Positions 37,435 to 52,679 are shown, numbered from the stretch's first letter. The stretch is 64,000 nt of DNA from Lysobacterales bacterium (GCA_965279425.1 OZ257239.1:2835541-2899540), one strand, 5' to 3'. Notes: generated by a model from the sequence alone, not told the origin. A program made the numbers and translations.

Positions 37435-38073
37435 ATGCAGGACACGAGCGCCAACCTCCTCTCCAAAGAGCTGCTCGCACAGCTGATGCTTCGGGGCGGC
37501 ATGAAAGGCTACGCCAAGAACGAGATCCTGATTACCGAGGGCGATACGTCCGATGCCCTCTTCATTCTAGTTTCGGGCCAAGTGAAAGTATTCACCCGGG
37601 ACTCGAGAGGACGCGAGGTCGTCTACAACATCCTTCAGCCAGGCGAACTCTTCGGGGAGATGTTCCTGGATGGCGGCACGCGATCCGCATCGGTGAAAGC
37701 GACCGCAGAATCGCAATGCATCCTCATCGATGACACCCAGATCCAGGAGCTGATCAAGGCCTACCCCGAACTTGCGGAATGCCTGATCCAGAGCCTTATC
37801 GCGCGCTTGCGGCATGCCACCCAGATGATTAAGAGCCTGGTACTCAACGATGTCTACGAGCGGACCACCGCGCTGCTCAACCAGGTCGCCCTGACCGAAG
37901 GCGATACCCGCATTGTCCCGCCCTCGATGACCCAGCAGGAAATCGCCGACCGCGTCGGCGCCACCCGCGAAATGATCAATCATGTGCTGGGGGAACTCAT
38001 GAAAGGCGGCTTCGTTTCCCGGGATGAAAAGCGGCAACTCGTATTCACCAAGAGTCTGCCGACGCGTTGGTAA
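37435..38073 (+). CDS. Crp/Fnr family transcriptional regulator
   Basis: cNMP pocket GELFGEM..RSASV and HTH MTQQEIADRVGATRE. Confidence 0.9.
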   Translation: MQDTSANLLSKELLAQLMLRGGMKGYAKNEILITEGDTSDALFILVSGQVKVFTRDSRGREVVYNILQPGELFGEMFLDGGTRSASVKATAESQCILIDDTQIQELIKAYPELAECLIQSLIARLRHATQMIKSLVLNDVYERTTALLNQVALTEGDTRIVPPSMTQQEIADRVGATREMINHVLGELMKGGFVSRDEKRQLVFTKSLPTRW

Positions 38074-38120
38074 CCGCCCACTCGGAAACCGGAACGACCT
38101 GACTTAGCCGACACCAAAAA

Positions 38121-39734
38121 TCAGGGTGCAACCGCTTTCTGATCGTTTGAAGGCGTGAACAACAAGTCCTGATAGTCGTAACTGAAATCGGCGAGCGGCG
38201 AAACCGGCTTCATGGTGATGCGCGCGACCTTGCCTTCCGCGTCCAGCGCGAAGGTGACGTAGGCCGGCTCTATCGAACTGTCGTCCCATTCCGTACGGAA
38301 CGTGTCGTATTGCCAATGAGTGAGTGTTCCGGCCATATTCGGCGTCTGCAGGAAGTCGATGCGCAGTTTCCCCGAACGCTCGCTGATCTCGACAGGTCCA
38401 TACCAGGCATCGACATAGCGGCCTGCGTAGCCCGGAGCAACCAGCGAAGGACGCGACGTCTTGCGAACTCCCTTCCCCGTAGCCTGCAATGCCGCCAGAC
38501 CGCCGTCAAGACGCTGCCGGTTCCAGGTATCGAATGCCGCAACCCAGTCGCGCGGCGCGAAGCCCAGATAGTGATCGAGCAATTCGTAACCCAGTCCGCG
38601 CATCACGCCGACGTCTTCCGAATTGATCTGCAGCGAAATGCCCAGGTTCCGCTCCGGCACCATCACGATAAAGGTCAGCACGCCGAAGACGGCGCCGCCA
38701 TGCTGGATGACCTTGATGCCGCGATAGTCCTGCACGTTCCAGCCCAGCGCGTAGCTTGAGAACTGCGGAGTGATGTCGGTGATCGGCGCTGGATAGGCAT
38801 TGATCGGGACCGGCACCTGCGGGGTCCACATCGCCTGTGCGGAAGCGTCGCTATACAGGCGCTTGCCATCGCTGCCAGGCAGGGCGCCATGCGCCAGCTG
38901 TATCTGCATCCAGCGGGCCAGATCATTCGCGCTTGAAGACAGACCGCCAGCCGCTGCACCGACTTGACCCAGGCCCTCGCGCTCCGGCAATACCTGCTGC
39001 GGCCCCAGTCCACGCAGGCGCGGATCGAGCCGCGCATGCGGCTGCGCGCGGTTCGGGTTGGCGAAGCGATCCTTCTCATCGCTGACCGAGCTGGTCATGC
39101 CCGCGGGCTCGAACATGCGTTCGCGCATGAAACTTTCCCAGTCCTGCCCGCCGGCTGCGGCAATCACCTCGCCCGCAACGATGTACAGGATGTTGTCGTA
39201 GGCGTAGTTGCTGCGGAAGCTGGTCGCCGGTTTAAGATTGCGCAGCGCGCGTACGATGTCGGCGCGGCTGCGCGAACTACGCGGAATAAAAAGCAGGTCG
39301 CCTGCCCCGAGTCCCAGGCCGCTGCGATGGACCAGCAGATCGCGCACCGTCATCTCCCGCGTGACCCAGGCGTCATACATGCGGAAATCCGGCAGGTGGT
39401 CGATGACCTTGTCGTCCCAGTCCAGCTTGCCTTCATCCACCAGGATCGCCAGCGCAGCGGCGGTAAAGGCCTTGCCGGTGGAGCCGGTGGGGAAGATGGT
39501 GTCGGCATCGACCGCGTCGGGCTCACCCAGCTTGCGTACCCCATAACCCTTGGCATGCACGATCTTTCCCTGTTCGACGATGGCGATGGCCATGCCGGGC
39601 ACGCCGTGCTCGCGGATCGCCTGGTCCACACGCGCGTCGAAATCGGGCGGCGGCGCGGCCAGTGCGACAGTGACCCATGCAAGGGCAGTGACGACGATCA
39701 GCAGCCGCAGCCATTTAGAAATCGAAACCATCAT
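38121..39734 (-). CDS. Exported serine hydrolase (beta-lactamase/PBP fold with DUF3471-like C-terminus)
   Basis: Signal peptide; GSTGK (SxxK), YDN, HGG; C-terminal YAGRYVDAWYG..LTHWQYDTF. Confidence 0.9.
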   Translation of the reverse strand: MMVSISKWLRLLIVVTALAWVTVALAAPPPDFDARVDQAIREHGVPGMAIAIVEQGKIVHAKGYGVRKLGEPDAVDADTIFPTGSTGKAFTAAALAILVDEGKLDWDDKVIDHLPDFRMYDAWVTREMTVRDLLVHRSGLGLGAGDLLFIPRSSRSRADIVRALRNLKPATSFRSNYAYDNILYIVAGEVIAAAGGQDWESFMRERMFEPAGMTSSVSDEKDRFANPNRAQPHARLDPRLRGLGPQQVLPEREGLGQVGAAAGGLSSSANDLARWMQIQLAHGALPGSDGKRLYSDASAQAMWTPQVPVPINAYPAPITDITPQFSSYALGWNVQDYRGIKVIQHGGAVFGVLTFIVMVPERNLGISLQINSEDVGVMRGLGYELLDHYLGFAPRDWVAAFDTWNRQRLDGGLAALQATGKGVRKTSRPSLVAPGYAGRYVDAWYGPVEISERSGKLRIDFLQTPNMAGTLTHWQYDTFRTEWDDSSIEPAYVTFALDAEGKVARITMKPVSPLADFSYDYQDLLFTPSNDQKAVAP

Positions 39735-39754
39735 GAACTCTCCAACACGGTTCG

Positions 39755-40870
39755 CTAACTGAAATCGGAATCGATGCGCTTCGGACGGCGCCACAACAGC
39801 CAGACGCCCCAGGTCATCAACGGGAGCACATACACCAGCAGGAACAGCCAGGTCAGCGTGCCGTAACCCTTGGCGATCAGATCGACCAGACCGACCGCGC
39901 TGGCGGCATATACGGCGAGCAGCATCACAATGACCGCCAGCGCCGGACGCAGCGACTGCGGCATGGGTTTTTGCCGCTCCTCGAAGGCCTTGGCCACGCG
40001 CTCGTTGATCGCATGCAACAGCGCCACGCCGGTGTCCACCAGGGTCAGCAGCACGGCGATCTGGAAAACCCATTCGAACCAAGGCGCCTGCAGCTTGGCC
40101 AGCAGGAACGCCGAAGGCAGCGCTTCGGCGCCGATCTCGTTGTAGTAGCCCATCATCGCGATGTAGAACACCACGCCCGGCAGCATGCCTAGCGGACCGG
40201 CGAGCGCGCCGGCAGCGAGCGTCTCGCGACGGCTGCGCAGATGGCGGATGCAGAACAGCACCGCCGGAATGGTGGCGACGTTGTACCCGGCGTAGGTGAT
40301 GCCCGCGGTGAACCAGCCGTCGGAAACAGGCACCGCCGCGAAGTTGGTTTCGATGCGGTCGCCGAACGCGATCACGCTCCACACCAGGAAGACGAAATAC
40401 ACCAGGTAGAGATAGCCCACCGACACGGTGAGGAACTTCTCGATCGCCGCGCTACTGCAGACCAGCATCAACCCGGTGGCGGCGATCATGCCCAGCGAAC
40501 CGGCCAGCTTCGGCAGGCCGAACAGGCTGTGCGCGATCTCGCCCGCAGCCGCGCCCATCACCGCCAGGATGATGATGATCAGCGCGAAGTAGCCGATCTC
40601 GAACAGGAACCAGCCACGGCCGAGCAGCACCTGGAAAAACGAACGATAGTCGTAGGCGCGCGCGACGCGGGCCAGTTCGAAACTGACCATCAGCACCAGG
40701 CTCCAGACCAGCATGCTGACCACCATGCCCAACAGACCACCCCAAGGCCCCGCCGGCAGGAAGAATTCCACCAGTTCGCGCCCGGTGGCGTAGCCGCCCG
40801 CGATCACCGCCGCCTGGAACACGAATCCCGGCAGCAGGTAGCGCTGGAACCAGGTGGCTTTCGCAGTCAT
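39755..40870 (-). CDS. YkvI-like polytopic membrane protein (putative amino-acid transporter)
   Basis: AVIAGGYATGRELVEFF motif and about 10 hydrophobic segments. Confidence 0.75.
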   Translation of the reverse strand: MTAKATWFQRYLLPGFVFQAAVIAGGYATGRELVEFFLPAGPWGGLLGMVVSMLVWSLVLMVSFELARVARAYDYRSFFQVLLGRGWFLFEIGYFALIIIILAVMGAAAGEIAHSLFGLPKLAGSLGMIAATGLMLVCSSAAIEKFLTVSVGYLYLVYFVFLVWSVIAFGDRIETNFAAVPVSDGWFTAGITYAGYNVATIPAVLFCIRHLRSRRETLAAGALAGPLGMLPGVVFYIAMMGYYNEIGAEALPSAFLLAKLQAPWFEWVFQIAVLLTLVDTGVALLHAINERVAKAFEERQKPMPQSLRPALAVIVMLLAVYAASAVGLVDLIAKGYGTLTWLFLLVYVLPLMTWGVWLLWRRPKRIDSDFS

Positions 40871-40925
40871 TGCGCACACAAGTGCATGGCGACCCTATCC
40901 ATGGCGGAATAGTGGCCAAGGTTCT

Positions 40926-41987
40926 TCATGCCAGACAGTCTTCCACCAAACGCTCGAACGCCGCTCCACCACGCATCGGGTCGGCCACCGCATAGCCCAG
41001 GCGGTCGCTTTCGGACGCCAGCAGATGCAGGGCGGCGGCTTCGTCGAGGTGCGCAGTGTTGAGGCTGACGCCGCCGCAACGGATGTCAGCTCGTGTGCGG
41101 CTCCCCAGCCGCAGCGTCAGCTCGATGGTCTCCTCGATACTGGGAAGCACATAGGCTGGATGACCCAGCATGCGTTCGCGTCCCGGTTGATGGCAGACCA
41201 CCACGACATTCGGCTGACTGCCGTGCAGCAGTGCCAGCGACACGCCAGCATAGGCCGGATGGAACACGGACCCCTGCCCTTCGATCACATCCCAGTGATC
41301 GTCGGCAGCATCGGGCGAAAGCATCTCGGCCGCCCCCGCGGCGAAATCGGCAATCACCGCATCCATCGGCATGCCGCTACCGGCAATCATGATGCCGGTC
41401 TGACCGGTGGCCCGGAAATCCGCATCCACTCCGCGCTGACGGAAAGCGCGGGCCAGCGCGAGTGCCGTGTACTTCTTCCCCAAAGCGCAATCGGTTCCCA
41501 CGGTAAGCAGGCGTTTCCCGCTGCGGGGAAGGCCGGTGGCGACCTTGATACCTGTCGGTGGCTGACGCACATCGATCAATCTGCGGCCCAGTATTGCCGC
41601 CGCATTGCGCAGCTGCGCAATGTCCCCCAAGCGCACATGCATGCCGCTGATAAGGTCCAGGCCGGCTTCCATAGCCTGCAACAGCGAACCCAACCACGCC
41701 TCCGGTATGACACCACCGGCGTTGGCTACGCCGATCACCATGGCCCGCGCGCCCTTCGCGGAAGCCTCGACGGGCGTCAGGAAACGCAAGCCCGTGGTGA
41801 CGGTTGCCCCTTCGCAATGGAACTCCCCAAGACAGCGCTCGGGTGCCCAGTCGCGAAGCCCATACGCGGTCTTGGCGTAACCGGATTCAGTGGTATTGCC
41901 AAGGAACAGGAGATAGGGGCCCGGCAGCGCCTCCAATGCTTGTGGACCTAACGGACCTAACGGACCTAACGGGCGTGCTTGCAGCAT
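40926..41987 (-). CDS. DUF1611 family protein (DgcN-like D-amino-acid N-acetyltransferase)
   Basis: PYLLFLG, GTDCALGKKYT, ATGQTG, IEGQGSVFHP; same operon as an enolase-family epimerase. Confidence 0.85.
   Translation of the reverse strand: MLQARPLGPLGPLGPQALEALPGPYLLFLGNTTESGYAKTAYGLRDWAPERCLGEFHCEGATVTTGLRFLTPVEASAKGARAMVIGVANAGGVIPEAWLGSLLQAMEAGLDLISGMHVRLGDIAQLRNAAAILGRRLIDVRQPPTGIKVATGLPRSGKRLLTVGTDCALGKKYTALALARAFRQRGVDADFRATGQTGIMIAGSGMPMDAVIADFAAGAAEMLSPDAADDHWDVIEGQGSVFHPAYAGVSLALLHGSQPNVVVVCHQPGRERMLGHPAYVLPSIEETIELTLRLGSRTRADIRCGGVSLNTAHLDEAAALHLLASESDRLGYAVADPMRGGAAFERLVEDCLA
41944..41970. repeat. 9-bp tandem repeat x3 within the DUF1611 N-terminus
   Basis: GGACCTAAC x3, encoding PLG-PLG-PLG on the minus strand. 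Confidence 0.9.
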
Positions 41988-42081
41988 GGGGCGTTCTTCA
42001 CCAGACAGAGTCGAGAGGCGCCCCGTTCCACCGGCGCAGAACGCCAGCGGCGAAGGCAATGGCGGCGCTTGATGGCGTCGC

Positions 42082-44439
42082 CTAGAACCGGTAGTCGAAC
42101 TCGATGCCGAAGGTGCGCGGCCTGATGGGCACGCCGGCGACCTGCACCTTGGCGCCGCTCACTTCGCTGTCTATCGCTGACAGCGAGGACCAGGCGTCTT
42201 CGTTGGTGACGTTGTTGGCATAGACGCGCATTTCCCAACGGCCCTTGCCGATGCCCGCGTACACATCCAGCGCGCGGTAGCTGTCGAGTTCAAGCGGCGC
42301 GGTTATTTGTTCGTCCAGCACCGTCGACGGATCACCCAATGGCGTGATGCGTTGGCGTTCGGTCGTCGCGTTGAACCGCTTGCCCACGCCGCGCAATGCG
42401 GCGCCCACCTGGCCCGTGAACCCACCCTGGGTTGCGAACGCGTATTCGGTGGTGAAGGCCCACGACAACTTGGGCACATAGGGCACGCGATCACCGGCCA
42501 GTCCCGTATTGAGGATGACGTCCAGGCCGTCGTCGACCAGCGAGATGACCGTCGGATCGAAGTCGTTCTTCACCGTGGCCTTGGTGTAGGCGGCATTGAA
42601 GCCGACGGTCCACTGGTCGGTGGCGCGGAACGAGGTCGACAGTTCGGCGCCTTCGCTGGTCGCTTCGCCGCCATTGACCAGGCCGCCGATGCCGTTGAAG
42701 GAAGCGGCCACCTGGATGTCGTCCCAATCGATGCGGAATAAGGACACATCCAGCTGCACGCGCTGGTCGGCGAACTGGGACTTTAGCCCCAGCTCATAAC
42801 TGTCGAGTTTCGAGGCATCCACCTTGGGCGGCATGCCGGGAACCGCGACATTCGGTCCGCCGGGTTGATAGCCGGTGGCGACGCGGGCATAGACCATGCT
42901 GTCCTGGCCCAGCTTGAATTGCGGGCTCAGGCTCCAGGTAAAGACATCCTCACTGGATTGGCCAGGCGTATTGCCCAGTTCCACCAGGATGCCCTCGGTC
43001 ACGTTCTGGCTGAAGTCCTGCTCGTTGCGCGCCTGGCGCACGCCTGCATCGATCTTGAAGCGTTCGCCGATGCGCCAGGAAGCGTTGGCGAACACCGCGT
43101 ACTCCTTGTAGGTGCTGGGCAGACCAAGGAAGGCTAGCGTCGAAAACATTTCGTCGTAGGGCGCCGGCAGCGGCGAACCATCGAGCTGCCCCAGCCATAC
43201 GAACTGGGTCTGCAAGGCATCTTCCCGGGTATAGAAGGCGCCCAGCATCCACTCGAACGGCCCACCGCTCTTGGAACTCAGGCGGAACTCCTGGGTAACT
43301 TTTTCCAGGTCGAACTGGTAACGCGCGAAGGAGCTGCCGGGGTCCGGAAGCCCAAGCAGCTGGTCGGCTACTTCTCCGAACTGGATGGTCGCATCGATCT
43401 GGGACAGCGTGTCGGTCTGCGACCAACCCGTGGCCGACACGAAGTCCGCCCAGCCCAGATCCCAGTCCAGGCTCAGCGAACCCAGGGTGAGTTCCTTGGA
43501 AAAAGGTTGCGACTGCCAGGTGCGGTCCACCAGATCGCCGAACAGCGGTTGCAGCGTGTCGGGATCCAGCGCAGTGCCGCCGCGCTCGTCGGCGCTGATG
43601 CGCTGGTGCAGCATCGAAAGGTTGAGATCGAAAGCATCGCCGTCCCAGAACAGCGCAGCGCGCGCACCCACCTGCTCGCTGTCGTTGATGTCCTGGTGGC
43701 CGTCGACGACGTTGTCGGTGTAACCCGGCAGTCCGTTGCGCGCGAAGCTCACCCGCAGGCCCAGCCGGTCTTCTACAAGCGGCACGCTCGCACCGAAGCG
43801 CGCGTTCCAGGCCTCGCCCCCGCCCTGCACGGTGCGCAGGCCGAAGCCGAGCCGCAATTCGTCTCCGCTTGTCTCGGGCGCGCGCGTGACGTATTTGAGC
43901 AAACCGCCGATGGCCCCCGCGCCGTACAACGTTCCCTGCGGCCCGCGCAGCACTTCCACCCGGCTGATGTCGTAGGGCAGCACGTCCAGCATCAAAGTGT
44001 TGGCGCCCTGATAGATGCCGCTGGAACCCACCGGCACTTCATCGATGTAGGTCGCGACGGTGGCGCTGGAAGACATCGCCGAGATGCCGCGCAGCGATAT
44101 CGAGGTCTGTCCCGGGCTGCCGTTGTCTTCCACCTGCAGTCCCGGGATCAGCGCCGCGTAATCGGCCAGCGAGCTGGCACCGATGTTCTCAAGCTGGCGC
44201 TCGCCGATCACACTGATCGACGCGGCCACATCGCGAATGTTTTCCACGCGTTTGTTGGCGGTGACAACTACGGTGTCCAGCGTGGCCGCTTGTTCGGCCG
44301 ATGTCGATTGCGCTTGCGCTTGCGGCGTGGAAGTTTGCTGCGCCAAGACGGGATTGGCAGCGGCAAACGCCAGACTGCTGGCAATGGCGAGCGACAAGGG
44401 CGAGCGATACCACGGGCGGGTTGACTGGAACGCGTTCAT
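42082..44439 (-). CDS. TonB-dependent receptor
   Basis: Signal peptide, TonB box DTVVVTA, plug RVEVLRGPQGTLYG, C-terminal aromatic ending EFDYRF. Confidence 0.95.
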   Translation of the reverse strand: MNAFQSTRPWYRSPLSLAIASSLAFAAANPVLAQQTSTPQAQAQSTSAEQAATLDTVVVTANKRVENIRDVAASISVIGERQLENIGASSLADYAALIPGLQVEDNGSPGQTSISLRGISAMSSSATVATYIDEVPVGSSGIYQGANTLMLDVLPYDISRVEVLRGPQGTLYGAGAIGGLLKYVTRAPETSGDELRLGFGLRTVQGGGEAWNARFGASVPLVEDRLGLRVSFARNGLPGYTDNVVDGHQDINDSEQVGARAALFWDGDAFDLNLSMLHQRISADERGGTALDPDTLQPLFGDLVDRTWQSQPFSKELTLGSLSLDWDLGWADFVSATGWSQTDTLSQIDATIQFGEVADQLLGLPDPGSSFARYQFDLEKVTQEFRLSSKSGGPFEWMLGAFYTREDALQTQFVWLGQLDGSPLPAPYDEMFSTLAFLGLPSTYKEYAVFANASWRIGERFKIDAGVRQARNEQDFSQNVTEGILVELGNTPGQSSEDVFTWSLSPQFKLGQDSMVYARVATGYQPGGPNVAVPGMPPKVDASKLDSYELGLKSQFADQRVQLDVSLFRIDWDDIQVAASFNGIGGLVNGGEATSEGAELSTSFRATDQWTVGFNAAYTKATVKNDFDPTVISLVDDGLDVILNTGLAGDRVPYVPKLSWAFTTEYAFATQGGFTGQVGAALRGVGKRFNATTERQRITPLGDPSTVLDEQITAPLELDSYRALDVYAGIGKGRWEMRVYANNVTNEDAWSSLSAIDSEVSGAKVQVAGVPIRPRTFGIEFDYRF

Positions 44440-44515
44440 CTTTGGCTCTCCCGGCGGGACGTTGGGCTGAATGAATGATCGGTCCCGGCAATGCCCTGGC
44501 TGCAGCACGCATGGG

Positions 44516-44557
44516 TATCCTGATTAGGGATAATGATCCTAATCGGAAAATTGTCAA
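44516..44557 (-). promoter_or_regulatory. Sigma70 promoter with overlapping inverted-repeat operator (copy 1)
   Basis: TTGACA-N16-CATTAT overlapped by GATTAGG-N9-CCTAATC; 77 nt upstream of the TBDR start. Confidence 0.7.
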
Positions 44558-44616
44558 TATGTTTAGAAAATGTTGGCCACTATGGCCGGCTCGTGGCGGA
44601 CTGCCATCAAAACCGA

Positions 44617-46326
44617 CTAATTCTGTGTCGGTCCACGCCAGCCGGGGCCGCGCACTACTCGCCCTGGTTTAGCGCCGGTGTGCTCCCCATCGCGCAGCAC
44701 TTGCACGCCATTGACGAATACATCGCCTACCCCGGTCGCGTATTGCTGGGGCTTGTCGTAAGTGGCGTGGTCGGTGATCGCGGACGGGTCGAATATGACC
44801 ACGTCGGCAAAGCACCCTACCTTGAGGCAACCGCGATCCTTGAGTTTCCAGTTCGCTGCGGGCAATCCGGTGAGGCGATGGATGCCTTCTTCGAGCGTCA
44901 TGAGCTTGCGATCACGCACGTAATGGCCCAGAAAACGTGCGAAGTTGCCGTAGGCGCGGGGGTGCGTGCTGGACTTCAGAAACACGCCTTCGGGCGCGGA
45001 CGATTCGGCATCTGACCCCAGACTCGTCCACGGCTGCTTCAAACCCAGCTCGACATTGTTTTCGCTCATCAGGAAGTATGCGGCGCCCAGTTCCGAGTCA
45101 TCTTCAAGGATCAGATCGATCACCGTGTCCTCAGTGGACCTGCCCTGGCTCTTGGCTATCGCGGCCAGGCTCTTCCCCAACAACGGCTTCAGCTTTTCGG
45201 TCTTGCACTCGATCAGCAGAACGCGTTCGTCGGAACCGGTAAGCAAGCGGAGGTTTTCCCAGGACGCATTGGGATCGCGCATTTCGGCTATCACGCGCGT
45301 CCTGATCGCAGGATCTTTCAGCCGCACGATCAGCGCCTCGAAACCGCCCGCCTGCACCCATGGCGGCAACGCGGCGGTGAGACTGGTGCCACCGGCGGTG
45401 TAGGCATACATATCCGCACTTACTTTCTGGCCTTGATCGCGTGCGGTCTGGATTCTGGCGATGGCCTGGGCCATCTTGGGCCAGTTCTTCTCCCCTGCCG
45501 CTTTCAGGTGATACGCCTCGGCACGCTGCCCGGTGGCGCGCGCGATGGAGATCGTCTCGTCCAACGCTTCCAGGAAGCGGTCGGCTTCGCTGCGCATATG
45601 CGCGATGTAACCGCCGCCGGATTCGGCCGCGGCCTGCGCCAGTGCAGTCAATTCACTGGTGTCGGCGAATGCAGCGGGCGGATAGATCAGCGAGCCGCCC
45701 ACGCCCAGCGCGCCCTCTTTCATCGCCTGTCGTACCAGATCCTGCATGCGCGCCAGCTGCGCCGCGTCTGGCTTGACATCTTCTTCGCCCAGTTCGTGGA
45801 TGCGCACCGTCGTCGCGCCGACGAACGAAGCGACGTTCGGCGTGACCCCACGCTTCTGCAGATAGTCCAGGTATTCGCCCAGCGTGGTCCATTCGATCGG
45901 GTAACGGATGTCGCCCTGCTGCTTCAGCGCATCGGCCTTCATCTTCTCGTTGTAAGGCCCCATCGACCAGCCTTCGCCGAAGATCTCCAGCGTCACGCCC
46001 TGCCTGGTGTCGCTCATGCCACGGCCATCGGCGATCAACGACTCGTTGGCCCAACTCAATACGTTGATGAAACCCGGTGCGACCGCCTGGCCCCGTGCAT
46101 CCACCGTGCGGGCGGCTACCACCTTGCTTCCGGCTGGCAGCAATGCGGCGATGCGGTCACCACGCACGGCCACATCGACCTGTTGCGCCGGAGAACCGCT
46201 GCCGTCGTAGACCAATCCGTTCCGTATCAGCAGGTCGTACGACTCTCTGGCTGGGATAGTAACCGGTGTAGAAGAAGCGCAACCGGCAAGTGCCAGCACC
46301 AGCAGGAAAATGCGTAGTCGGTACAT
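44617..46326 (-). CDS. N-acyl-D-amino-acid deacylase family amidohydrolase, lipoprotein
   Basis: Lipobox LAGC; DLLIRNGLVYDGSG, HMRSE, YHLK, GSDA, HPRAYGNF. Confidence 0.88.
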   Translation of the reverse strand: MYRLRIFLLVLALAGCASSTPVTIPARESYDLLIRNGLVYDGSGSPAQQVDVAVRGDRIAALLPAGSKVVAARTVDARGQAVAPGFINVLSWANESLIADGRGMSDTRQGVTLEIFGEGWSMGPYNEKMKADALKQQGDIRYPIEWTTLGEYLDYLQKRGVTPNVASFVGATTVRIHELGEEDVKPDAAQLARMQDLVRQAMKEGALGVGGSLIYPPAAFADTSELTALAQAAAESGGGYIAHMRSEADRFLEALDETISIARATGQRAEAYHLKAAGEKNWPKMAQAIARIQTARDQGQKVSADMYAYTAGGTSLTAALPPWVQAGGFEALIVRLKDPAIRTRVIAEMRDPNASWENLRLLTGSDERVLLIECKTEKLKPLLGKSLAAIAKSQGRSTEDTVIDLILEDDSELGAAYFLMSENNVELGLKQPWTSLGSDAESSAPEGVFLKSSTHPRAYGNFARFLGHYVRDRKLMTLEEGIHRLTGLPAANWKLKDRGCLKVGCFADVVIFDPSAITDHATYDKPQQYATGVGDVFVNGVQVLRDGEHTGAKPGRVVRGPGWRGPTQN

Positions 46327-46384
46327 CGGCGTGCTCCTCATGGATCGCAATGGCGCAGGCGCCGCGATGAGCGCGGCGGATATT

Positions 46385-47725
46385 TCAATGGCGAGCTTCT
46401 TCTTGCGCTGCATCCGCATTGGCGGACGCATTGGGTTGCTGAAGCATCGAACGCCGTGCCGACTCCACGTCACGGATCGGACGGTCTAGCATCCACAGCA
46501 CGCAGGCGGCCAGCACTGCCAAGCCCGACAGCAGCACGAAGAATCCGGCGTGGCTGGTCCGCGACCACAAGGCACCGACCACGCCAGCCAACAGACTGCC
46601 GCTGAAGACCGCAAGGAACCACGCGGCGACGGTGGTCGCACCCAGGCGCGGCGGCGCCAGCCGCGCGAACAGACCCAGACCAGTGGGCAGGATATAAAGC
46701 TCGCCCAGCGTCAGGATCACGAAGAACGCCAGCAGCCATGGCCAGCCGACGCGTTCGCCGCCAGCGAAATTGTCCAGCGCCGCCAGCAGCAGATAGGCCA
46801 GCGCCACGATCACGGCACCGATAGCCATCTTGCGGGCTGGCGAAGTCTCACGACCCGCATCGGCGCGATGACGCCAGTGCAGCAGCAACAGCGGCGTCAT
46901 GCTGATCACCAGCAATGGATTCAAGGCCTGGAACCAGGTCATCGGAATCACCACGCTGCCCCAGGTGCGATCCACGCCCATGTCGGTCCACAACGGCAAT
47001 GTGTTGCCGATCTGTTCGTAGGCGCCGCGGAAGATCGTCGCCGCAATGCCCACGCCCAACAGCAGCATCCACACTTGCTTCTGGTCGCTGCTGCGTTCGC
47101 CTGCGCCAGCGGACGTGCGCAATGCACGCATCCGGTTCTCGGGCGGCAGATAGTCGCGACCAAGCACATAGATGATCAGGCCGAGGAACATGCCGATCCC
47201 CGCGGCGCCGAACCCGTAATGCCAGCCATAGACTTCGCCCAGCGTGCCGCAGATCAACGGTGCCATGAAGCCGCCGATATTCAAGCCCACGTAATACACG
47301 TTGTAGGCCCGCCCGCGACGCGGATCGTCGGCCCTGTAAAGATCGTTGATCTGGCTGGGAAGGCTGGGCAGGAACAGGCCGTTACCCAGCGCAATGGTGG
47401 CCAGCGCTAGGTAGAACATCGGCTCGAACGCCATCATGAAGTGGCCCAGCGCCATCACGCTGCCGCCGATGATCACCGCGTTGCGCTTGCCCAACCAGCG
47501 GTCGGCGATGGCGCCGCCCAGGATCGGCGTGAAGTAGGCCAGCGCCGTATACGTGCCGTAGATGAGAGAGGATTTTTCCTGCGCGAACAACAGCTCCTTG
47601 GTCATGTAATAGACCAGCAGCGTGCGCATGCCGTAGTAGGAGAACAGCTCCCACATGTTGGTGAGGAACAGGATCGTGAGCCCACGCGGCTGGCCGAACC
47701 ACGTCTTTTCCGTCACCGTGCTCAC
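46385..47725 (-). CDS. POT/PTR family peptide:H+ symporter
   Basis: WFGQPRGL, WELFSYYGMR, YVGLNIGG, ELYILPTGL. Confidence 0.92.
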   Translation of the reverse strand: MSTVTEKTWFGQPRGLTILFLTNMWELFSYYGMRTLLVYYMTKELLFAQEKSSLIYGTYTALAYFTPILGGAIADRWLGKRNAVIIGGSVMALGHFMMAFEPMFYLALATIALGNGLFLPSLPSQINDLYRADDPRRGRAYNVYYVGLNIGGFMAPLICGTLGEVYGWHYGFGAAGIGMFLGLIIYVLGRDYLPPENRMRALRTSAGAGERSSDQKQVWMLLLGVGIAATIFRGAYEQIGNTLPLWTDMGVDRTWGSVVIPMTWFQALNPLLVISMTPLLLLHWRHRADAGRETSPARKMAIGAVIVALAYLLLAALDNFAGGERVGWPWLLAFFVILTLGELYILPTGLGLFARLAPPRLGATTVAAWFLAVFSGSLLAGVVGALWSRTSHAGFFVLLSGLAVLAACVLWMLDRPIRDVESARRSMLQQPNASANADAAQEEARH

Positions 47726-48735
47726 GCGATGGCCTTTGGGCCCCAGACTTCATCGCCGCAGGAAATGTAGCCGTCCTCGTAATGGACCGAGGGCGTGCGG
47801 TCCTGCTTCAGAAAGATCGGCCCGTCCAGATCGACAACGTCGCAGAACTGCCCCAGCACGAAGGCCGGGGCCGCAGCGAGACTGGTGCCGCACATGTTGC
47901 CAACCATCACCTGCTTGCTGAGTTCGCGTGCGCGCCTGGCCATCAGCAGGCCCTCGGTCAGTCCGCCGCACTTGTCCAGCTTGATGTTGATGACATCGAA
48001 GCGGTGATGGCGCGCTTCCAGTTCGGCAAGGTCGAGAATGCTTTCGTCAGCCGCGAACGGCAGCGGGCGGTCGATGCCGTCCAGGTCGCTTTCGCGCCCG
48101 CGCACGCACGGCTGTTCGAGCAACGAGATCTCCGCTTCGACCAATGCCGGCAGCAGCAGCGACAAGGTCGCTGCATCGTAGCCCTGATTGGCATCCACAC
48201 CGATCCATGCCTGCGGGCAACGCGTGCGCACTGCGCGCACCCGTGCACTGTCGAGTTCCGCATCGCCGGTCAGCTTGAGTTTCAGCGCTCGCGCCTGCGA
48301 ATAGGCTGCAGCTCTGTCCGCCATCACCGAAGGTTCGTCGGCACCGACGGTGAAGGTCGTCAACAGCCTGTTTACCTTCTCCAGCCCTGCCAGCTTCCAG
48401 ACCGGCATGCCGCGACGCTGGGATTCGAGTTCCCACAAGGCGCAATCGAGCGCATTGCGCGCGCCGCCCGCAGGCAGCAACGTGCGCAGTGTGTCCCGAT
48501 CCAGTCCCGCTTCTATGCGTGGCCGCAGCGCCTCGAGCGTGACGATCATCGTCTCGGGATGATCGTTGTTGTAGTAGACGCCTGCCGCTTCTCCGCGCCC
48601 CACATATTCGCCATCGCGCAGCGTTACGACGGTCGCGGGCATCGCTTCGAACACATGGCCGGCGATGCGGAACGGGGCCGACATCGGCAATGGTTCGTTA
48701 TGCAATTCGAGTACGACGGACGCGGTAGCAGTCAC
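47722..48735 (-). CDS. Dipeptide epimerase, enolase superfamily (DgcA/AEE-like)
   Basis: PFRIA, ARNALDCALWELE, KLKL, VDANQG, EQP, ADES, NIKLDKCGG; GTG start after GAGG. Confidence 0.88.
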   Translation of the reverse strand: MTATASVVLELHNEPLPMSAPFRIAGHVFEAMPATVVTLRDGEYVGRGEAAGVYYNNDHPETMIVTLEALRPRIEAGLDRDTLRTLLPAGGARNALDCALWELESQRRGMPVWKLAGLEKVNRLLTTFTVGADEPSVMADRAAAYSQARALKLKLTGDAELDSARVRAVRTRCPQAWIGVDANQGYDAATLSLLLPALVEAEISLLEQPCVRGRESDLDGIDRPLPFAADESILDLAELEARHHRFDVINIKLDKCGGLTEGLLMARRARELSKQVMVGNMCGTSLAAAPAFVLGQFCDVVDLDGPIFLKQDRTPSVHYEDGYISCGDEVWGPKAIA

Positions 48736-48797
48736 GCACACCTCACCAGGAAGTCGGAGGGAAACAGCCGGCGGAATGCAGCACCGGACGTTCTGGG

Positions 48798-50819
48798 TCA
48801 GTAGTAGGCGCCGTAACCGAGCAGGTGGTGGGCCAACCCAAGCCACAGCAGGAACAGGCACGACAGCGCCACGAGCACGGCCCATAGCTTGGCCAACCAG
48901 CGGCGACGACTGCTGCGCAGCACCTGCCATGCATTCCACACCGACAGCGCCGCCCCGACCGGCAGCACCACCAGTGCCAGCAGGCGCAAGAGATTGATCC
49001 ACAGGTCGGAACTGGCCCCTGTCATCTCCAGGTCGCTGAGCATCGCGACCACGAAGCCAAGCGCTCCGCCGACCGACAGCAGCACGGCCAGTGCGGTCAG
49101 CCGCACGATGCGGTGAGCACGCGCATCGGTGCCCGACAGACCGTAAGGCACGCCATAGCGGCGGCGCACCAGCGCCGACACCGGCCAGGCGATGACGGTC
49201 AGCAACAACACCGTCAAGCTGGCCACCAGCAGTGGCAGCGAAAGAGAACGCCAGGTGGAGAGCCGCTCGAACACCATGATCGGCGCGTAAGGTTCCATGG
49301 TGAAGCGGGTGACCTTGCCATCGACTACATCGGCGGCCATGCGGTCGCTGCCATTCACGTCCTGCCAGACATAGGGCGATATTTCGCGCCACTTCTTGGG
49401 CACGCCATTGGCGCCCATGGCCATCGGCACGCTGAGGGTACCGTCCTCATTCGCGACCACCTTGACCTGGCCCAGCAGATTCACCAGCGACAGAAGATTG
49501 CTCTGCGGACGTCGGCTGCTGTCGTAATGGCCCACCATCTGTTCGGCATGCAGCTTGGCCTGGGCCGCATCGAACGAGGGCGCGCGCGTCTTTGGACCCG
49601 GCAGATAGCGGTCGGCGAAACCGCGAACCAGGTTTCCGCGGATCACCCCGGTTGCCCCATCGCGCCCGCTGCTGTTCATGGAAACGAAGATGCCGATGCC
49701 ATCGTCCAGGAACAGCTCCAGATCGCTATGGAAATACATCGTGTCGCCGCCATGGGCAATCGCGCGATGACCATTGATGGTGGTTTCGTAGAAGCCGAGC
49801 ATCATCCGGTTGAGCGGACCAATGGACTTCTGTCCGGTCGAATGCATCTTCTGCGCGGTTTCCGCATTGAGGATGCGCGCGTCTCCGTAACTGCCGTCGC
49901 CCAGGTGCGCCAGCATGAAGCGGCCCATGTCCGCGCCGGTGGACGCCAGGCTGCCGGCCGGCGCCAGACTGATGAACTCGTACTCCTTGGCCTTGCCGTC
50001 GGAAGCTTTCGTGTAGCCCTTGGACATCTTGGCCAGCAACGCGGGTTGCAGCGGCTGGCTGAAGCTGGAGTGCGCCATGCCCAAAGGCTGGAAGATGTGG
50101 CTCGCGATATAGGCGTCGAACGGTTCGCCGGACACGCGCTGCACGATGTAGCCAGCCAACGCCGTGGCGTAGTTGGAATAGGCAGGCGTGGCGCCCGGCA
50201 CATGAATGCGTTCGGGCACCCAGCGCTTCAGCGCCTCTCCCAGCGGCACGATTTCTTCGGGGCGCGAGGTGATCAGGCCGCGGATCTGTTCTTCCAGTCC
50301 GGTGGTGTGGGTCATGATCTGGCGCAGCGTCATCGGCTTGCCGTCGCGCTCGGGAATCTTGAAGTCGATGTATTTGTTGACGTCCGCGTCCAGGTCCAGC
50401 TTGCCCTGCTCGACCAGCTGCATCACAGCGGTCCAGGTAAAGAGCTTGGAGACCGATCCGGGCCGGAACAGCGTGCCTGCCGGATCGACCGGAGTACGCT
50501 TCTCGATATCCGAATAGCCGTAACCCTTCTGCAGCAGTACCTGGCCGTCCTTGACCACCACGACCACCGCACCGGCGATGTCGCCATTGTCCAGCGCGTA
50601 AGGCAGATAGCCATCCAGCCAGGCCTCGACGTCCGCACGGGTCAGCAGGGGCGCCTCTGCAGGCGATGGAGTTTTGGGCTTTTGGGCAGCAGTGGAGTCG
50701 GCCTGCATGGCAGCGGGTGGAACAGCCGCTGGCGCCAGCGATGCCTCCTGCGCGGTCAGCGTTGCGGTCAAGCCCATGGCCAACAGCCCCCCGCACAACA
50801 GGAACGGAATTACGCGCAT
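48798..50819 (-). CDS. Serine hydrolase (beta-lactamase/PBP fold) with four C-terminal TM helices
   Basis: Signal peptide; GSVSK (SxxK), YSN, HGGD; four hydrophobic helices at the C-terminus. Confidence 0.88.
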   Translation of the reverse strand: MRVIPFLLCGGLLAMGLTATLTAQEASLAPAAVPPAAMQADSTAAQKPKTPSPAEAPLLTRADVEAWLDGYLPYALDNGDIAGAVVVVVKDGQVLLQKGYGYSDIEKRTPVDPAGTLFRPGSVSKLFTWTAVMQLVEQGKLDLDADVNKYIDFKIPERDGKPMTLRQIMTHTTGLEEQIRGLITSRPEEIVPLGEALKRWVPERIHVPGATPAYSNYATALAGYIVQRVSGEPFDAYIASHIFQPLGMAHSSFSQPLQPALLAKMSKGYTKASDGKAKEYEFISLAPAGSLASTGADMGRFMLAHLGDGSYGDARILNAETAQKMHSTGQKSIGPLNRMMLGFYETTINGHRAIAHGGDTMYFHSDLELFLDDGIGIFVSMNSSGRDGATGVIRGNLVRGFADRYLPGPKTRAPSFDAAQAKLHAEQMVGHYDSSRRPQSNLLSLVNLLGQVKVVANEDGTLSVPMAMGANGVPKKWREISPYVWQDVNGSDRMAADVVDGKVTRFTMEPYAPIMVFERLSTWRSLSLPLLVASLTVLLLTVIAWPVSALVRRRYGVPYGLSGTDARAHRIVRLTALAVLLSVGGALGFVVAMLSDLEMTGASSDLWINLLRLLALVVLPVGAALSVWNAWQVLRSSRRRWLAKLWAVLVALSCLFLLWLGLAHHLLGYGAYY

Positions 50820-50880
50820 TGCTGGTCTCCGGAATGGATGAACAGACCCGCGGGTGCATGCGGGGCGGCAGGTGCCTATT

Positions 50881-50923
50881 TATCCTAATTCGGCAATAAT
50901 GATCCTAATCAGAGAATTGTCAA
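50881..50923 (-). promoter_or_regulatory. Sigma70 promoter/operator (copy 2)
   Basis: TTGACA-N16-CATTAT sharing GATTAGGATCATTAT with copy 1. Confidence 0.7.
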
Positions 50924-51059
50924 CCTGCCGAAAGTCAGGTCCATAGCTGCCCTTGTTTCGCGATTGCACAGCGCCATTTCCCTAGAGCGCCTGCTGAGGC
51001 GATGATGATCCTGCCCAGGACATCCGCAGTCGGGCTATCCACTCGGGAGATAATTAGGG

Positions 51060-51791
51060 ATGACATCGCACCACCCCACCATCGGCGGACTGCTGCGCTC
51101 GCTACGCGCGCGCAAGGGCTGGACCCTCAAGCAGATGAGTCAGCATTCCGGGATTCCGCTTTCCACCCTTTCCAAGGTGGAACACGACCGGTTGACACTG
51201 ACCTACGACAAGCTGCTCCAGCTCAGTCAGCGCCTGCAGTTGCGCATGTCCGAACTGTTCGCCGAACAGGACGACGCGCCCGACCCGCCCGTGACGGCCC
51301 GGCGCAGCATCGGCCGCATGGAAGATGCGATCCGCGTGAACACGCCCAACTACGACTATTACTACCTGTGCCCCGAGCTGCGCCGCAAACGCATGATCCC
51401 GGTACTGACGCGCGTGCGTGCCAAGACCATCGAGGAATTCGGCGAGCTGGTCCACCACTCTGGCGAGGAATACATCCACGTGCTCGAAGGGCGCGCGGAA
51501 GTGCATACCGAGTTCTACGACCCGATCATCCTGGAGGCCGGGCAGTCGGTCTACATAGATTCGAATATGGGCCATGCCTATATCGCCGCAGAAGGCTGCG
51601 AAGAAGTCCTGCTGCTGGGCGTGTGCTCCAGCGCGGACGAGCAATTGATGGAATCGCTGATGACCCTGCACGGCGATGAGATGAATGCCGTGCCGGCAGG
51701 AAAACGTCAGCCGGCTGAACCGGCGAATGTTTCGACTCCCAAAGCGCGGGCGCCTCGCAAAACTGCATCTGTGGCAAGGAAAACCTCTTGA
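51060..51791 (+). CDS. XRE-family HTH regulator with cupin sensor domain
   Basis: LRSLRARKGWTLKQMSQHSGIPLSTLSKVEH; HSGEEYIHVLEG..DSNMGH. Confidence 0.92.
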   Translation: MTSHHPTIGGLLRSLRARKGWTLKQMSQHSGIPLSTLSKVEHDRLTLTYDKLLQLSQRLQLRMSELFAEQDDAPDPPVTARRSIGRMEDAIRVNTPNYDYYYLCPELRRKRMIPVLTRVRAKTIEEFGELVHHSGEEYIHVLEGRAEVHTEFYDPIILEAGQSVYIDSNMGHAYIAAEGCEEVLLLGVCSSADEQLMESLMTLHGDEMNAVPAGKRQPAEPANVSTPKARAPRKTASVARKTS

Positions 51792-51836
51792 TCCTGCGGC
51801 GAGCCTCGCTACGCTGCAGTTTCACCACACCCATGT

Positions 51837-52679
51837 TCAACAGTCCTGCCATTCCATCCGGAACCATCTACTCAATACACTGCCTGGGGATAGCACGCGC
51901 GGCTCGATATTGAATGCATCGGGTGGGCCGCTTTGAGGTTCGACACAGGTCGCATAGTCCGCCTGATCGTAGACCACCCAATGCGTGCAGTCCGAGCTCA
52001 AGCGCATCCGCTGCCCGGGCCGCTCCAGCGTGACAGCGGCGGTGTTGGTGAAGCAGTCGTCCCACGGGCCAGGCGGCGGCGATACAACGGGCAACGTCGC
52101 TATCCCCGCCGCGTCGCGGGGATAGATGCCATTCGGCGAAAACTGCATTCGTTCCGGCTTGAGAAACCACGGATGCCAACCGATCACGATGGGCATTGCC
52201 TCTGGTCCTGCCTGCACTGAAAGACTGAGATCCAGCCGGTCTTCAGTCAGTTCCATCCGCTGATAGGCGGTTCCACCGAAGGGCCAACGCGCATCCTGCG
52301 GCAAGACCAACGAAAGCTCCAGGAGATCCGCCTGTTGGCAGTCGACCTGCCATGGCATCGCGAAACCGATCCCGTGGATAGCGTGCACGCCCAGGTTCGG
52401 CGGCAATCGGAAATCCTGCGCGCCGAACTGGAACCGTCCGTCACGGATGCGGCCCGCCCAAGGCAAGGTCGGGTAACAACCCCAGCCGATCATCGTCGTA
52501 TGCGGCCCACCATAGCCGACCAGCTGCTCGATTCCATCGCGGAATATCTGCGCGATGCGTCCGCCAGCCTGCGGCGCGACCTCCATCTTCAGCCTGCCGC
52601 TGCAGAGCTCTATCAGCGGACCCCGCTTGATCGAAGCCAGCGCGTCGGCTTCGACGCCATGGACGGGCTCAACCGCCAT
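51837..52679 (-). CDS. Aldose 1-epimerase (mutarotase) family protein
   Basis: PWAGRIRDG, HAIHG, GWHPWF, CVEPQ. Confidence 0.82.
   Translation of the reverse strand: MAVEPVHGVEADALASIKRGPLIELCSGRLKMEVAPQAGGRIAQIFRDGIEQLVGYGGPHTTMIGWGCYPTLPWAGRIRDGRFQFGAQDFRLPPNLGVHAIHGIGFAMPWQVDCQQADLLELSLVLPQDARWPFGGTAYQRMELTEDRLDLSLSVQAGPEAMPIVIGWHPWFLKPERMQFSPNGIYPRDAAGIATLPVVSPPPGPWDDCFTNTAAVTLERPGQRMRLSSDCTHWVVYDQADYATCVEPQSGPPDAFNIEPRVLSPGSVLSRWFRMEWQDC

What the first reader, a model, noticed from the sequence alone, without database searches (positions are those of the whole stretch)
44516..50923. Two near-identical promoter/operator sites define a mini-regulon for the XRE regulator
Seen: the 5' regions of both sub-operons (44516-44557 and 50881-50923) read TTGACA-ATT-N4-GATTAGGAT-CATTAT on the minus strand. 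A second AAT(T/C)AGGAT follows 10-11 nt after the first GATTAGGAT. Copy 1 contains a perfect inverted repeat GATTAGG-N9-CCTAATC across the -10 box. A related AATTAGGGAT overlaps the XRE start codon (51052-51061). Inference: this is the operator of the adjacent XRE-cupin repressor, with possible autoregulation. It independently supports the locus being one system.
Basis: partly seen in the sequence, partly recalled or inferred. Interest (0 to 1): 0.7.

Follow-up and report, generated by a model that had tools for sequence, protein, structure and literature searches.

The report
Conserved operator pair for XRE–cupin repressor
Two promoters of a gene cluster for scavenging D-amino-acid peptides carry the same conserved DNA motif, found nowhere else in the genome and only in genomes that also carry the neighbouring XRE–cupin regulator; it is very likely that regulator's binding site, an ordinary kind of local switch that is unusually well supported here.

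Summary
Minus-strand 44557-44516 and 50923-50881 each read TTGACA-ATTYTCY-GATTAGGAT-CATTAT, followed by a second AATYAGGAT 10-11 nt later. They are the only sigma70-like promoters in this 7 kb and the only sites of this motif in the 3.95 Mb Pseudoxanthomonas genome: PWM scores are 35.7 and 32.5 bits, and the next best is 17.3.

The same 40-nt island is conserved in the orthologous loci of Lysobacteraceae. It is at P1 in 75 of 76 loci. It is at P2 in 54 of 68; where it is absent, the receptor gene follows its upstream gene closely. The flanks are not alignable.

Across 301 family genomes, all 40 with the motif carry the regulator, and none of the 251 genomes without the regulator has it. The motif persists where the regulator is unlinked (G233) and marks a second, unlinked paralogous locus (G262).

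This fits the documented behaviour of XRE–cupin factors such as PsdR: local repressors that bind core promoters of neighbouring metabolic genes. Binding itself is inferred, not shown.

The claimed third site at the regulator's start codon is not conserved, so autoregulation is unsupported.

Verdict: a new member of a known kind, of moderate interest.

The parts
50918..50923 (-). P1 -35 hexamer TTGACA (promoter of the BlaTM / DgcA-like / POT / amidohydrolase sub-operon)
   Evidence: Consensus scan. Five positions are invariant and one is 74/75 across 75 orthologous loci.
50900..50917 (-). P1 operator unit O1, ATTCTCTGATTAGGATCA. It fills the -35/-10 spacer and overlaps the -10 hexamer.
   Evidence: PWM 35.7 bits, the top hit in the genome. 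Spacer positions T10, C11, A14, T15, G18, G19 and A20 are invariant in 75/75 loci.
50896..50901 (-). P1 -10 hexamer CATTAT
50882..50890 (-). P1 operator unit O2 core, AATTAGGAT. It starts 20 nt after the O1 box and covers the predicted transcription start.
   Evidence: An O2 with 1 or fewer mismatches is present in 40/75 P1 sites, at spacing 20 in 33 of them, against 0.27% expected by chance.
44552..44557 (-). P2 -35 hexamer TTGACA (promoter of the TonB-dependent receptor / DgcN-like / membrane protein / DUF3471 hydrolase sub-operon)
44534..44551 (-). P2 operator unit O1, ATTTTCCGATTAGGATCA
   Evidence: PWM 32.5 bits, second best in the genome.
44530..44535 (-). P2 -10 hexamer CATTAT
44517..44530 (-). 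P2 operator unit O2, TCCCTAATCAGGAT, a 14-nt direct repeat of O1's TTCCGATTAGGAT. Its box starts 19 nt after the O1 box.
   Evidence: O2 is present in 34/49 P2 sites, at spacing 19 in 32 of them.
44522..44544 (.). Perfect inverted repeat GATTAGG-N9-CCTAATC across the P2 -10 box
   Evidence: Related GGAT-N4/6-ATCC dyads occur at P2 in other lineages.
44575..44587 (-). Terminator-like hairpin GGCCATAGTGGCC plus a T-run, between the amidohydrolase stop codon and P2
   Evidence: The TTTTC run upstream of P2 is moderately conserved.
51060..51791 (+). XRE–cupin regulator gene (243 aa), divergent from P1
   Evidence: Pfam HTH_3/HTH_31 plus Cupin_2. AF2 model with a helical HTH domain, a flexible linker and a cupin barrel. 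Foldseek matches to HppE and 1Y9Q.
50977..51006 (+). Putative promoter of the regulator itself (TTTCCC-N18-GATGAT). Inferred only.
   Evidence: A second conserved island in the alignment of 75 P1 intergenic regions. It was not picked up by the consensus scan.
51052..51061 (+). AATTAGGGAT overlapping the regulator's start codon. A chance resemblance, not part of the system.
   Evidence: Not conserved in orthologues.
44617..50819 (-). Sub-operon 1: membrane-anchored beta-lactamase-fold hydrolase (50819-48798), DgcA-like racemase/epimerase (~48822-47722), POT peptide transporter (47725-46385) and Amidohydro_3 D-aminoacylase-like protein (~46326-44617)
   Evidence: Pfam, NCBIfam and synteny in 70+ loci.
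38121..44439 (-). Sub-operon 2: TonB-dependent receptor (44439-42082), DgcN-like DUF1611 protein (42059-40926), membrane protein (40879-39755) and beta-lactamase-fold/DUF3471 hydrolase (~39692-38121)

Best explanation
The two sites are sigma70 promoters (TTGACA, 16 nt, CATTAT), each overlaid by the operator of the divergently encoded XRE–cupin protein. That protein acts as a local repressor of a two-transcript regulon for uptake and breakdown of D-amino-acid-containing peptides and D-glutamate.

Each promoter holds two related units of about 14 nt (consensus TCYCYRATYAGGAT). O1 fills the -35/-10 spacer. O2 runs from the -10 box over the transcription start, 19 nt (P2) or 20 nt (P1) further on. 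Occupancy, probably by one dimer per unit, would block RNA polymerase. A pathway metabolite bound by the cupin domain would release the protein.

Shown: the sequence anatomy, its conservation, its uniqueness in the genome, its co-occurrence with the regulator, and the regulator's domain architecture.

Inferred: the actual binding, the sign of regulation, the stoichiometry and the ligand.
For: 1. Both sites are exact at the stated coordinates and are the only sigma70-like promoters in 7 kb.
2. Genome-wide uniqueness: PWM 35.7 and 32.5 bits against 17.3 for the next hit, and no other 15-mer copy with 2 or fewer mismatches.
3. Phylogenetic footprint: a 40-nt island at about 2 bits per position, flanks mostly 0.1-0.5 bits. 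It is present at P1 in 75/76 loci and at P2 in 54/68 loci across Pseudoxanthomonas, Luteimonas, Lysobacter, Stenotrophomonas, Arenimonas and Thermomonas. Spacer bases, which sigma70 does not read, are invariant.
4. O2 is present far above chance and at a fixed spacing for each promoter.
5. Co-occurrence: the motif is in exactly the 5 of 61 relatives that have the regulator. Family-wide the counts are 40 regulator+/motif+, 10 regulator+/motif-, 0 regulator-/motif+ and 251 with neither. The reversed control pattern gives 0 hits.
6. The 10 exceptions are 9 genomes of genus g40, whose regulators are diverged subfamilies, and one genome whose regulator gene lies near a contig end. In g40 the same BlaTM operon lies next to a 42-48% identical XRE–cupin with a changed recognition helix, and the candidate operator is different (TTTCCG-ATC-CGGAAA).
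7. The motif acts in trans. It is kept at both promoters in G233, where the regulator is on another contig. In G262 it marks two promoters of an unlinked paralogous locus (amidohydrolase-like, DgcA-like, TBDR-like).
8. No other regulator gene is syntenic.
9. Family precedent: XRE–cupin factors are local, specific repressors that bind core promoters of one or two neighbouring metabolic targets. PsdR has two sites at peptide uptake and dipeptidase genes (PMC7901475; PMC10965056).
10. No Rfam match and no unusual leader folding.
Against: - No binding, expression or transcription-start data exist here.
- Co-occurrence of motif and regulator is also co-occurrence with the whole locus, so by itself it does not single out the regulator.
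- Characterised XRE–cupin operators are palindromes bound by dimers. Here the clearest feature is a same-orientation repeat, and the dyad symmetry within a unit is only partial and its register is ambiguous (ATTCT-N6-AGGAT, core CYRATYRG, ATCC-N7-GGAT).
- The one paralogue in G013 has an identical recognition helix but a different box (TGGAGGAC). Specificity is therefore not explained by that helix alone.
- O2 is degenerate in the Lysobacter-type loci.
Confidence: 0.8

Rival explanations
1. The conserved island is the operator of a different trans-acting regulator encoded elsewhere. One possibility is a response regulator that reads direct repeats. The XRE–cupin protein would then have another role.
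For: The boxes are same-orientation repeats, which is more typical of OmpR/PhoB-type regulators than of XRE dimers. In G233 an OmpR-type response-regulator gene sits where the XRE gene normally is. Co-occurrence cannot separate the XRE gene from the rest of the locus.
Against: A regulator encoded elsewhere would be expected to have sites elsewhere, but the motif occurs only at these promoters in every genome checked. No other regulator gene is syntenic in more than 70 loci. The 19-20 nt repeat spacing is not the 10-11 nt spacing of OmpR-type sites. The motif changes where the XRE subfamily changes.
Confidence: 0.08
2. The island is only a strong, duplicated sigma70 promoter cassette with a conserved spacer, and no dedicated repressor binds it.
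For: TTGACA and CATTAT are near-consensus and are the most invariant parts. The AT-rich spacer could affect promoter strength.
Against: Spacer bases that sigma70 does not contact are invariant in 75/75 loci. The same unit recurs downstream of the -10 box, where it has no promoter role. No other promoter in a 3.95 Mb genome shares the spacer. Diverged subfamilies keep an ATTTTCCGAT..GGA element without the TTGACA.
Confidence: 0.05
3. The XRE–cupin protein binds the sites but acts as an activator or a dual regulator rather than a simple repressor.
For: No expression data are available. O1 abuts the -35 hexamer, where class II activators also bind.
Against: The promoters already have near-consensus hexamers and need no activator. 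O1 and O2 cover the -10 box and the start site, which is repressor geometry. All six XRE–cupin factors whose regulons were defined in P. aeruginosa are inhibitors (PMC7901475).
Confidence: 0.07

Closest known systems
PsdR (PA4499) of Pseudomonas aeruginosa, an XRE–cupin repressor of dipeptide uptake and utilisation
   Same: It has the same two-domain architecture. It is a local repressor. It has two operator sites at two neighbouring transcription units for peptide uptake and hydrolysis. Induction is presumed to be by peptides (PMC7901475, PMC10965056).
   Different: PsdR's operator is the palindrome TTAAG-N5-CTTAA. Here the unit is TCYCYRATYAGGAT, present twice per promoter in the same orientation. 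The targets also differ: a TonB-dependent receptor, a POT transporter, PBP-fold hydrolases and DgcA/DgcN-like enzymes, rather than DppA3 and MdpA. Sequence orthology was not tested.
PuuR (E. coli) and PauR (P. aeruginosa), XRE–cupin repressors of polyamine catabolism
   Same: HTH plus cupin architecture. They repress catabolic genes and are released by the pathway substrate.
   Different: The NCBIfam PuuR equivalog scores 40.8 bits against a cut-off of 211, so this protein is not an orthologue. The pathway is different, and PauR has a much larger regulon.
1Y9Q (Vibrio cholerae HTH_3-family regulator) and HppE-type HTH-like plus cupin proteins
   Same: These are the closest solved folds to the AF2 model (Foldseek E 3e-13 to 9e-12).
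   Different: Sequence identity is only 19-21%. HppE is an enzyme, not a regulator. The model is of moderate quality (mean pLDDT 70).
DgcN-DgcA D-glutamate catabolic pathway
   Same: Two regulon genes hit these NCBIfam models strongly: DgcN at 437.8 bits and DgcA at 339.5 bits. The pathway is described as an N-acetylation and racemisation route for D-Glu (PMC12363236, PMC10845958).
   Different: Both scores fall below the equivalog cut-offs (480 and 400). Here the genes are embedded with a TonB-dependent receptor, a POT transporter and PBP-fold hydrolases under an XRE–cupin regulator.

Membership tests
XRE–cupin transcription factors | N-terminal XRE/Cro-C1-type helix-turn-helix domain | tested here: met
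   Pfam HTH_31, HTH_19 and HTH_3 at residues 8-67. The AF2 model has helices at 8-66.
XRE–cupin transcription factors | C-terminal cupin beta-barrel sensor domain | tested here: met
   Pfam Cupin_2 at residues 131-184. Strands at 91-190 in the model. Foldseek matches to cupins.
XRE–cupin transcription factors | Encoded next to the metabolic or transport genes it controls | tested here: met
   The gene is divergent from the BlaTM operon in 70+ loci. Adjacency was tested; control itself was not.
XRE–cupin transcription factors | Operator lies in the core promoter of the target genes | tested here: met
   The conserved boxes lie between -35 and -10 and over the predicted start site. The promoter assignment rests on consensus only.
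XRE–cupin transcription factors | Palindromic operator bound by a dimer | tested here: inconclusive
   There is partial dyad symmetry (core CYRATYRG; ATTCT-N6-AGGAT; CCTGATCAGG at many P2 O2 units), but the dominant feature is a same-orientation repeat.
XRE–cupin transcription factors | Represses transcription and is released by a small-molecule ligand | not testable with these tools
   This needs EMSA, a mutant and expression data.
PsdR orthologue | Operator TTAAG-N5-CTTAA | tested here: not met
   The motif here is TCYCYRATYAGGAT. The PsdR motif is taken from PMC10965056.
PuuR orthologue | Score at or above the NCBIfam equivalog cut-off (NF007408, 211 bits) | tested here: not met
   40.8 bits.
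DgcN/DgcA pathway genes (content of the regulon) | Scores at or above the NCBIfam equivalog cut-offs (480 and 400 bits) | tested here: not met
   437.8 and 339.5 bits. They are close relatives but below the cut-offs.
sigma70 promoter | -35 and -10 hexamers with a 16-18 nt spacer and an experimentally mapped start site | tested here: inconclusive
   The hexamers match 10 of 12 positions with a 16-nt spacer. No transcription-start data are available.

The most novel reading that the evidence does not exclude
The regulator binds as two cooperating dimers to tandem same-orientation 14-nt units spaced 19-20 bp apart. That would be an arrangement not described for XRE–cupin factors. Its cupin domain would sense a peptidoglycan-derived D-amino-acid compound, such as D-Glu, N-acetyl-D-Glu or an L-Ala-D-Glu-type stem peptide. 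If so, this would be a dedicated sensor for cell-wall debris that controls a TonB-dependent scavenging system across Lysobacteraceae.
Probability: 0.25. Interest if true: 0.5.

Novelty: new member of a known kind. Interest (0 to 1): 0.35.

Why it matters
- It gives a precise, testable cis-element and regulon (two promoters, about eight genes) for an uncharacterised XRE–cupin regulator found in many Lysobacteraceae.
- It ties the TonB-receptor/DgcN half and the hydrolase/DgcA/POT half into one functional unit. This supports the reading of the locus as a scavenging system for D-amino-acid peptides.
- The tight, single-locus operator and repressor pair, with near-consensus promoters, could serve as an orthogonal inducible switch once the ligand is known. 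Finding that ligand would show which cell-wall-derived compound these bacteria sense.
- It does not change how this regulator family is understood.

Tried and rejected
1. Autoregulation through AATTAGGGAT at the start codon. Rejected: not conserved.
2. HTH/operator covariation using the G013:C3 paralogue. It has the same architecture with a TGGAGGAC box, but its recognition helix is identical and no close orthologues turned up among 301 genomes. Only the g40 subfamilies give weak support of this kind.
3. I first misread L002-L004 as having the motif downstream of the regulator. Genome-search loci are not re-oriented; all loci are divergent.
4. A single dyad register for the operator. Several registers, offset by one base, fit different sites, so none was adopted.
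5. A cis-regulatory RNA in the leaders. No Rfam hit at E of 1 or below, and the leader folds are no better than shuffles.
7. PDB sequence search. It found only the cupin domain of HppE at E = 1e-4.
8. Literature search for this locus or regulator in Xanthomonas, Stenotrophomonas or Lysobacter. Nothing relevant was found in the open library.
9. The Crp/Fnr-family gene at 37435-38073 as an alternative regulator. It is not syntenic in the three close relatives checked.
Full report
**Observation.** On the minus strand, 44557..44516 reads TTGACAATTTTCCGATTAGGATCATTATCCCTAATCAGGAT, and 50923..50881 reads TTGACAATTCTCTGATTAGGATCATTATTGCCGAATTAGGAT. The first 28 nt are 26/28 identical. This is the best long direct repeat in 38000-52000 and the only one there that lies outside the coding genes.

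A consensus scan of 44300-51300 finds only two sigma70-like promoters, and they are these two sites (TTGACA, 16 nt, CATTAT). It also finds a terminator-like hairpin at 44587..44575, just upstream of the second promoter.

**Genes.** The window lies in a 3.95 Mb, 63% G+C, single-contig genome of the genus Pseudoxanthomonas.

P1 precedes four genes:
- a membrane-anchored beta-lactamase-fold hydrolase;
- an enolase-superfamily racemase closest to DgcA;
- a POT peptide transporter;
- an Amidohydro_3 protein.

P2 precedes four more:
- a TonB-dependent receptor;
- a DUF1611 protein closest to DgcN;
- a membrane protein with no Pfam match;
- a beta-lactamase-fold/DUF3471 hydrolase.

The DgcA and DgcN matches are strong but fall below the equivalog cut-offs. 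The divergent gene at 51060-51791 encodes an HTH_3/HTH_31 plus Cupin_2 protein. Its AF2 model has a helical HTH domain, a disordered linker (residues 69-84) and a cupin barrel. The nearest solved folds are HppE and the Vibrio regulator 1Y9Q.

**Uniqueness in the genome.** The 15-mer has no other copy with 2 or fewer mismatches, and the 22-nt pattern has two hits. An 18-nt PWM built from 124 orthologous sites scores 35.7 and 32.5 bits at the two sites. The next best hit anywhere scores 17.3 bits. In this genome the regulon is therefore these two promoters.

**Phylogenetic footprint.** Eighty orthologous loci were fetched, with regulators 71-94% identical over the best aligned segment, from Pseudoxanthomonas, Luteimonas, Lysobacter, Stenotrophomonas, Arenimonas, Thermomonas and others. 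Synteny is conserved: XRE, then divergently BlaTM, Epim, POT, (Amido), TBDR, DUF1611, (Memb), Bla3471.

- The motif is at P1 in 75 of 76 loci with 2 or fewer mismatches. The 76th has one extra base in the spacer.
- It is at P2 in 54 of 68 loci.
- In the 14 loci without P2, the receptor gene follows the preceding gene closely and is presumably co-transcribed.

Information content is close to 2 bits per position from -2 to about +27 relative to the T of TTGACA, and intermediate up to +40. In the flanks it is mostly 0.1-0.5 bits. Spacer positions that were not part of my anchoring pattern (T10, C11) are invariant in 75/75 loci.

The second box (RATYRGGAT with 1 or fewer mismatches) is present in 40/75 P1 sites, at spacing 20 in 33 of them. 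It is present in 34/49 P2 sites, at spacing 19 in 32 of them. Chance expectation is 0.27%. At P2 the second unit (TCCCTGATCAGGAT) repeats 14 nt of O1 (TCTCTGATTAGGAT). In Lysobacter-type loci O2 is degenerate.

**Co-occurrence.** Among 61 relatives, the regulator and the motif occur in the same 5 genomes, and the motif occurs only at P1 and P2. In a family-wide sample of 301 genomes:
- 40 genomes have both the regulator and the motif;
- 10 have a regulator homologue but no motif;
- 0 have the motif without the regulator;
- 251 have neither.

The reversed control pattern never matched. The 10 exceptions are nine genomes of genus g40, whose homologues are diverged subfamilies, and one genome whose regulator gene lies near a contig end.

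In g40 the BlaTM-type operon lies next to a 42-48% identical XRE–cupin with a changed recognition helix (ISTLSKIENGK in place of LSTLSKVEHDR). The intergenic region there holds a different, palindromic candidate operator, TTTCCG-ATC-CGGAAA. A 60-66% identical subfamily has ATTTTCCGATTTGGA without a preceding TTGACA. This indicates that the ATTYTC stretch belongs to the operator rather than to the promoter.

**Natural experiments.**
- In G233 the operon keeps both motif sites, but the neighbouring gene is an OmpR-type response regulator. The only XRE–cupin homologue found (74% identical) is on another contig and has no motif within 1.5 kb.
- In G262 a second locus, 360 kb from the regulator, carries two diverged motif copies in front of its two units. 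One unit holds a membrane protein, an amidohydrolase-like gene and a DgcA-like gene. The other holds a TBDR-like gene.

Both cases fit a trans-acting, locus-specific factor whose sites belong to the catabolic promoters.

**Autoregulation.** The sequence at the regulator's start codon is not conserved in G026, G030, G013 or G029, nor in the 75-locus alignment. Only the CAT and the ribosome-binding site are conserved there. A second conserved island, which reads TTTCCA-N18-GATGAT on the regulator's strand (50977-51006 in the window), is probably the regulator's own promoter. It shares only GGATCAT with the box and lies about 55-60 bp from O1. Together with G233, this leaves autoregulation unsupported but not excluded.

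**Comparison with known systems.** Trouillon et al. showed by DAP-seq, RNA-seq and EMSA that P. aeruginosa XRE–cupin factors are local, highly specific inhibitors. They bind core promoters of one or two neighbouring metabolic targets, with palindromic motifs, as dimers. PsdR has two sites flanking its gene, at dppA3 and mdpA (PMC7901475). The PsdR motif is TTAAG-N5-CTTAA (PMC10965056).

The present case has the same logic with a different sequence, different targets and an operator layout dominated by same-orientation units. It is not PuuR: 40.8 bits against a cut-off of 211. No description of this locus or regulator in Lysobacteraceae was found.

**Rivals.**
- A different regulator encoded elsewhere is unlikely, because the motif never occurs outside these promoters.
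- A bare promoter cassette does not explain the invariant spacer bases or the repeat downstream of the -10 box.
- An RNA element is not supported.

**Limits.** Binding, repression, stoichiometry, transcription starts and the ligand are all inferred.

**Verdict.** The autoregulation clause is not supported. This is a new member of a known kind, of moderate interest.

Noticed in passing
L142 (G262:C1:159700-167700), motif at 302 and 5848: A second locus, 360 kb from the regulator, has two diverged motif copies. They sit in front of a membrane protein / amidohydrolase-like / DgcA-like unit and in front of a TBDR-like gene. In some species the regulon therefore extends to an unlinked paralogous locus. 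These copies show clean AGGAC-N6-GTCCT dyads across the -10 box.
   Followed up: partly
L144 (G233:C30:72000-80500) and L098 (G233:C15): The operon keeps both motif sites, but an OmpR-type response-regulator gene sits where the XRE gene normally is. The XRE–cupin homologue (74% identical) is on another contig and has no motif nearby.
   Followed up: partly
L013 (G013:C3:1789500-1809400), about 17000-17290: A paralogous locus (XRE–cupin 52% identical; order TBDR, BlaTM, Epim, POT) has one promoter with the same layout but different boxes: TTGACAAATTTTCTG-TGGAGGAC-GACATT-CTCCC-TGGAGAG. Its recognition helix is identical to the main group's.
   Followed up: partly
L133-L141 (genus g40, Lysobacter-like genomes): A 42-48% identical XRE–cupin subfamily lies next to BlaTM homologues. 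Its intergenic region holds a candidate palindromic operator, TTTCCG-ATC-CGGAAA, after an AT-rich -10-like stretch.
   Followed up: partly
window 37435-38073 (+): A Crp/Fnr-family regulator gene abuts the end of the locus. It has no tblastn match in the loci of the three close relatives checked, so it is probably unrelated to this system.
   Followed up: partly
L051, L079, L083, L087 (upstream of the TBDR): In lineages that lack the amidohydrolase gene, another gene ending in ...GGNFRRLLG... directly precedes the receptor gene and P2 is missing. It may be a membrane-dipeptidase-type enzyme. This suggests lineage-specific swapping of the hydrolase step.
   Followed up: no
L086 and L096 (Pseudoxanthomonas sp. 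NC8 chromosome): All locus genes appear as many short tblastn fragments. This is either pseudogenisation or indel-rich assembly. The motif is still intact at both promoters.
   Followed up: no
window 47722-48822 and 40926-42059: The DgcA-like and DgcN-like genes score just below the NCBIfam equivalog cut-offs (339.5 against 400, and 437.8 against 480). Their substrate may therefore differ from free D-Glu.
   Followed up: no
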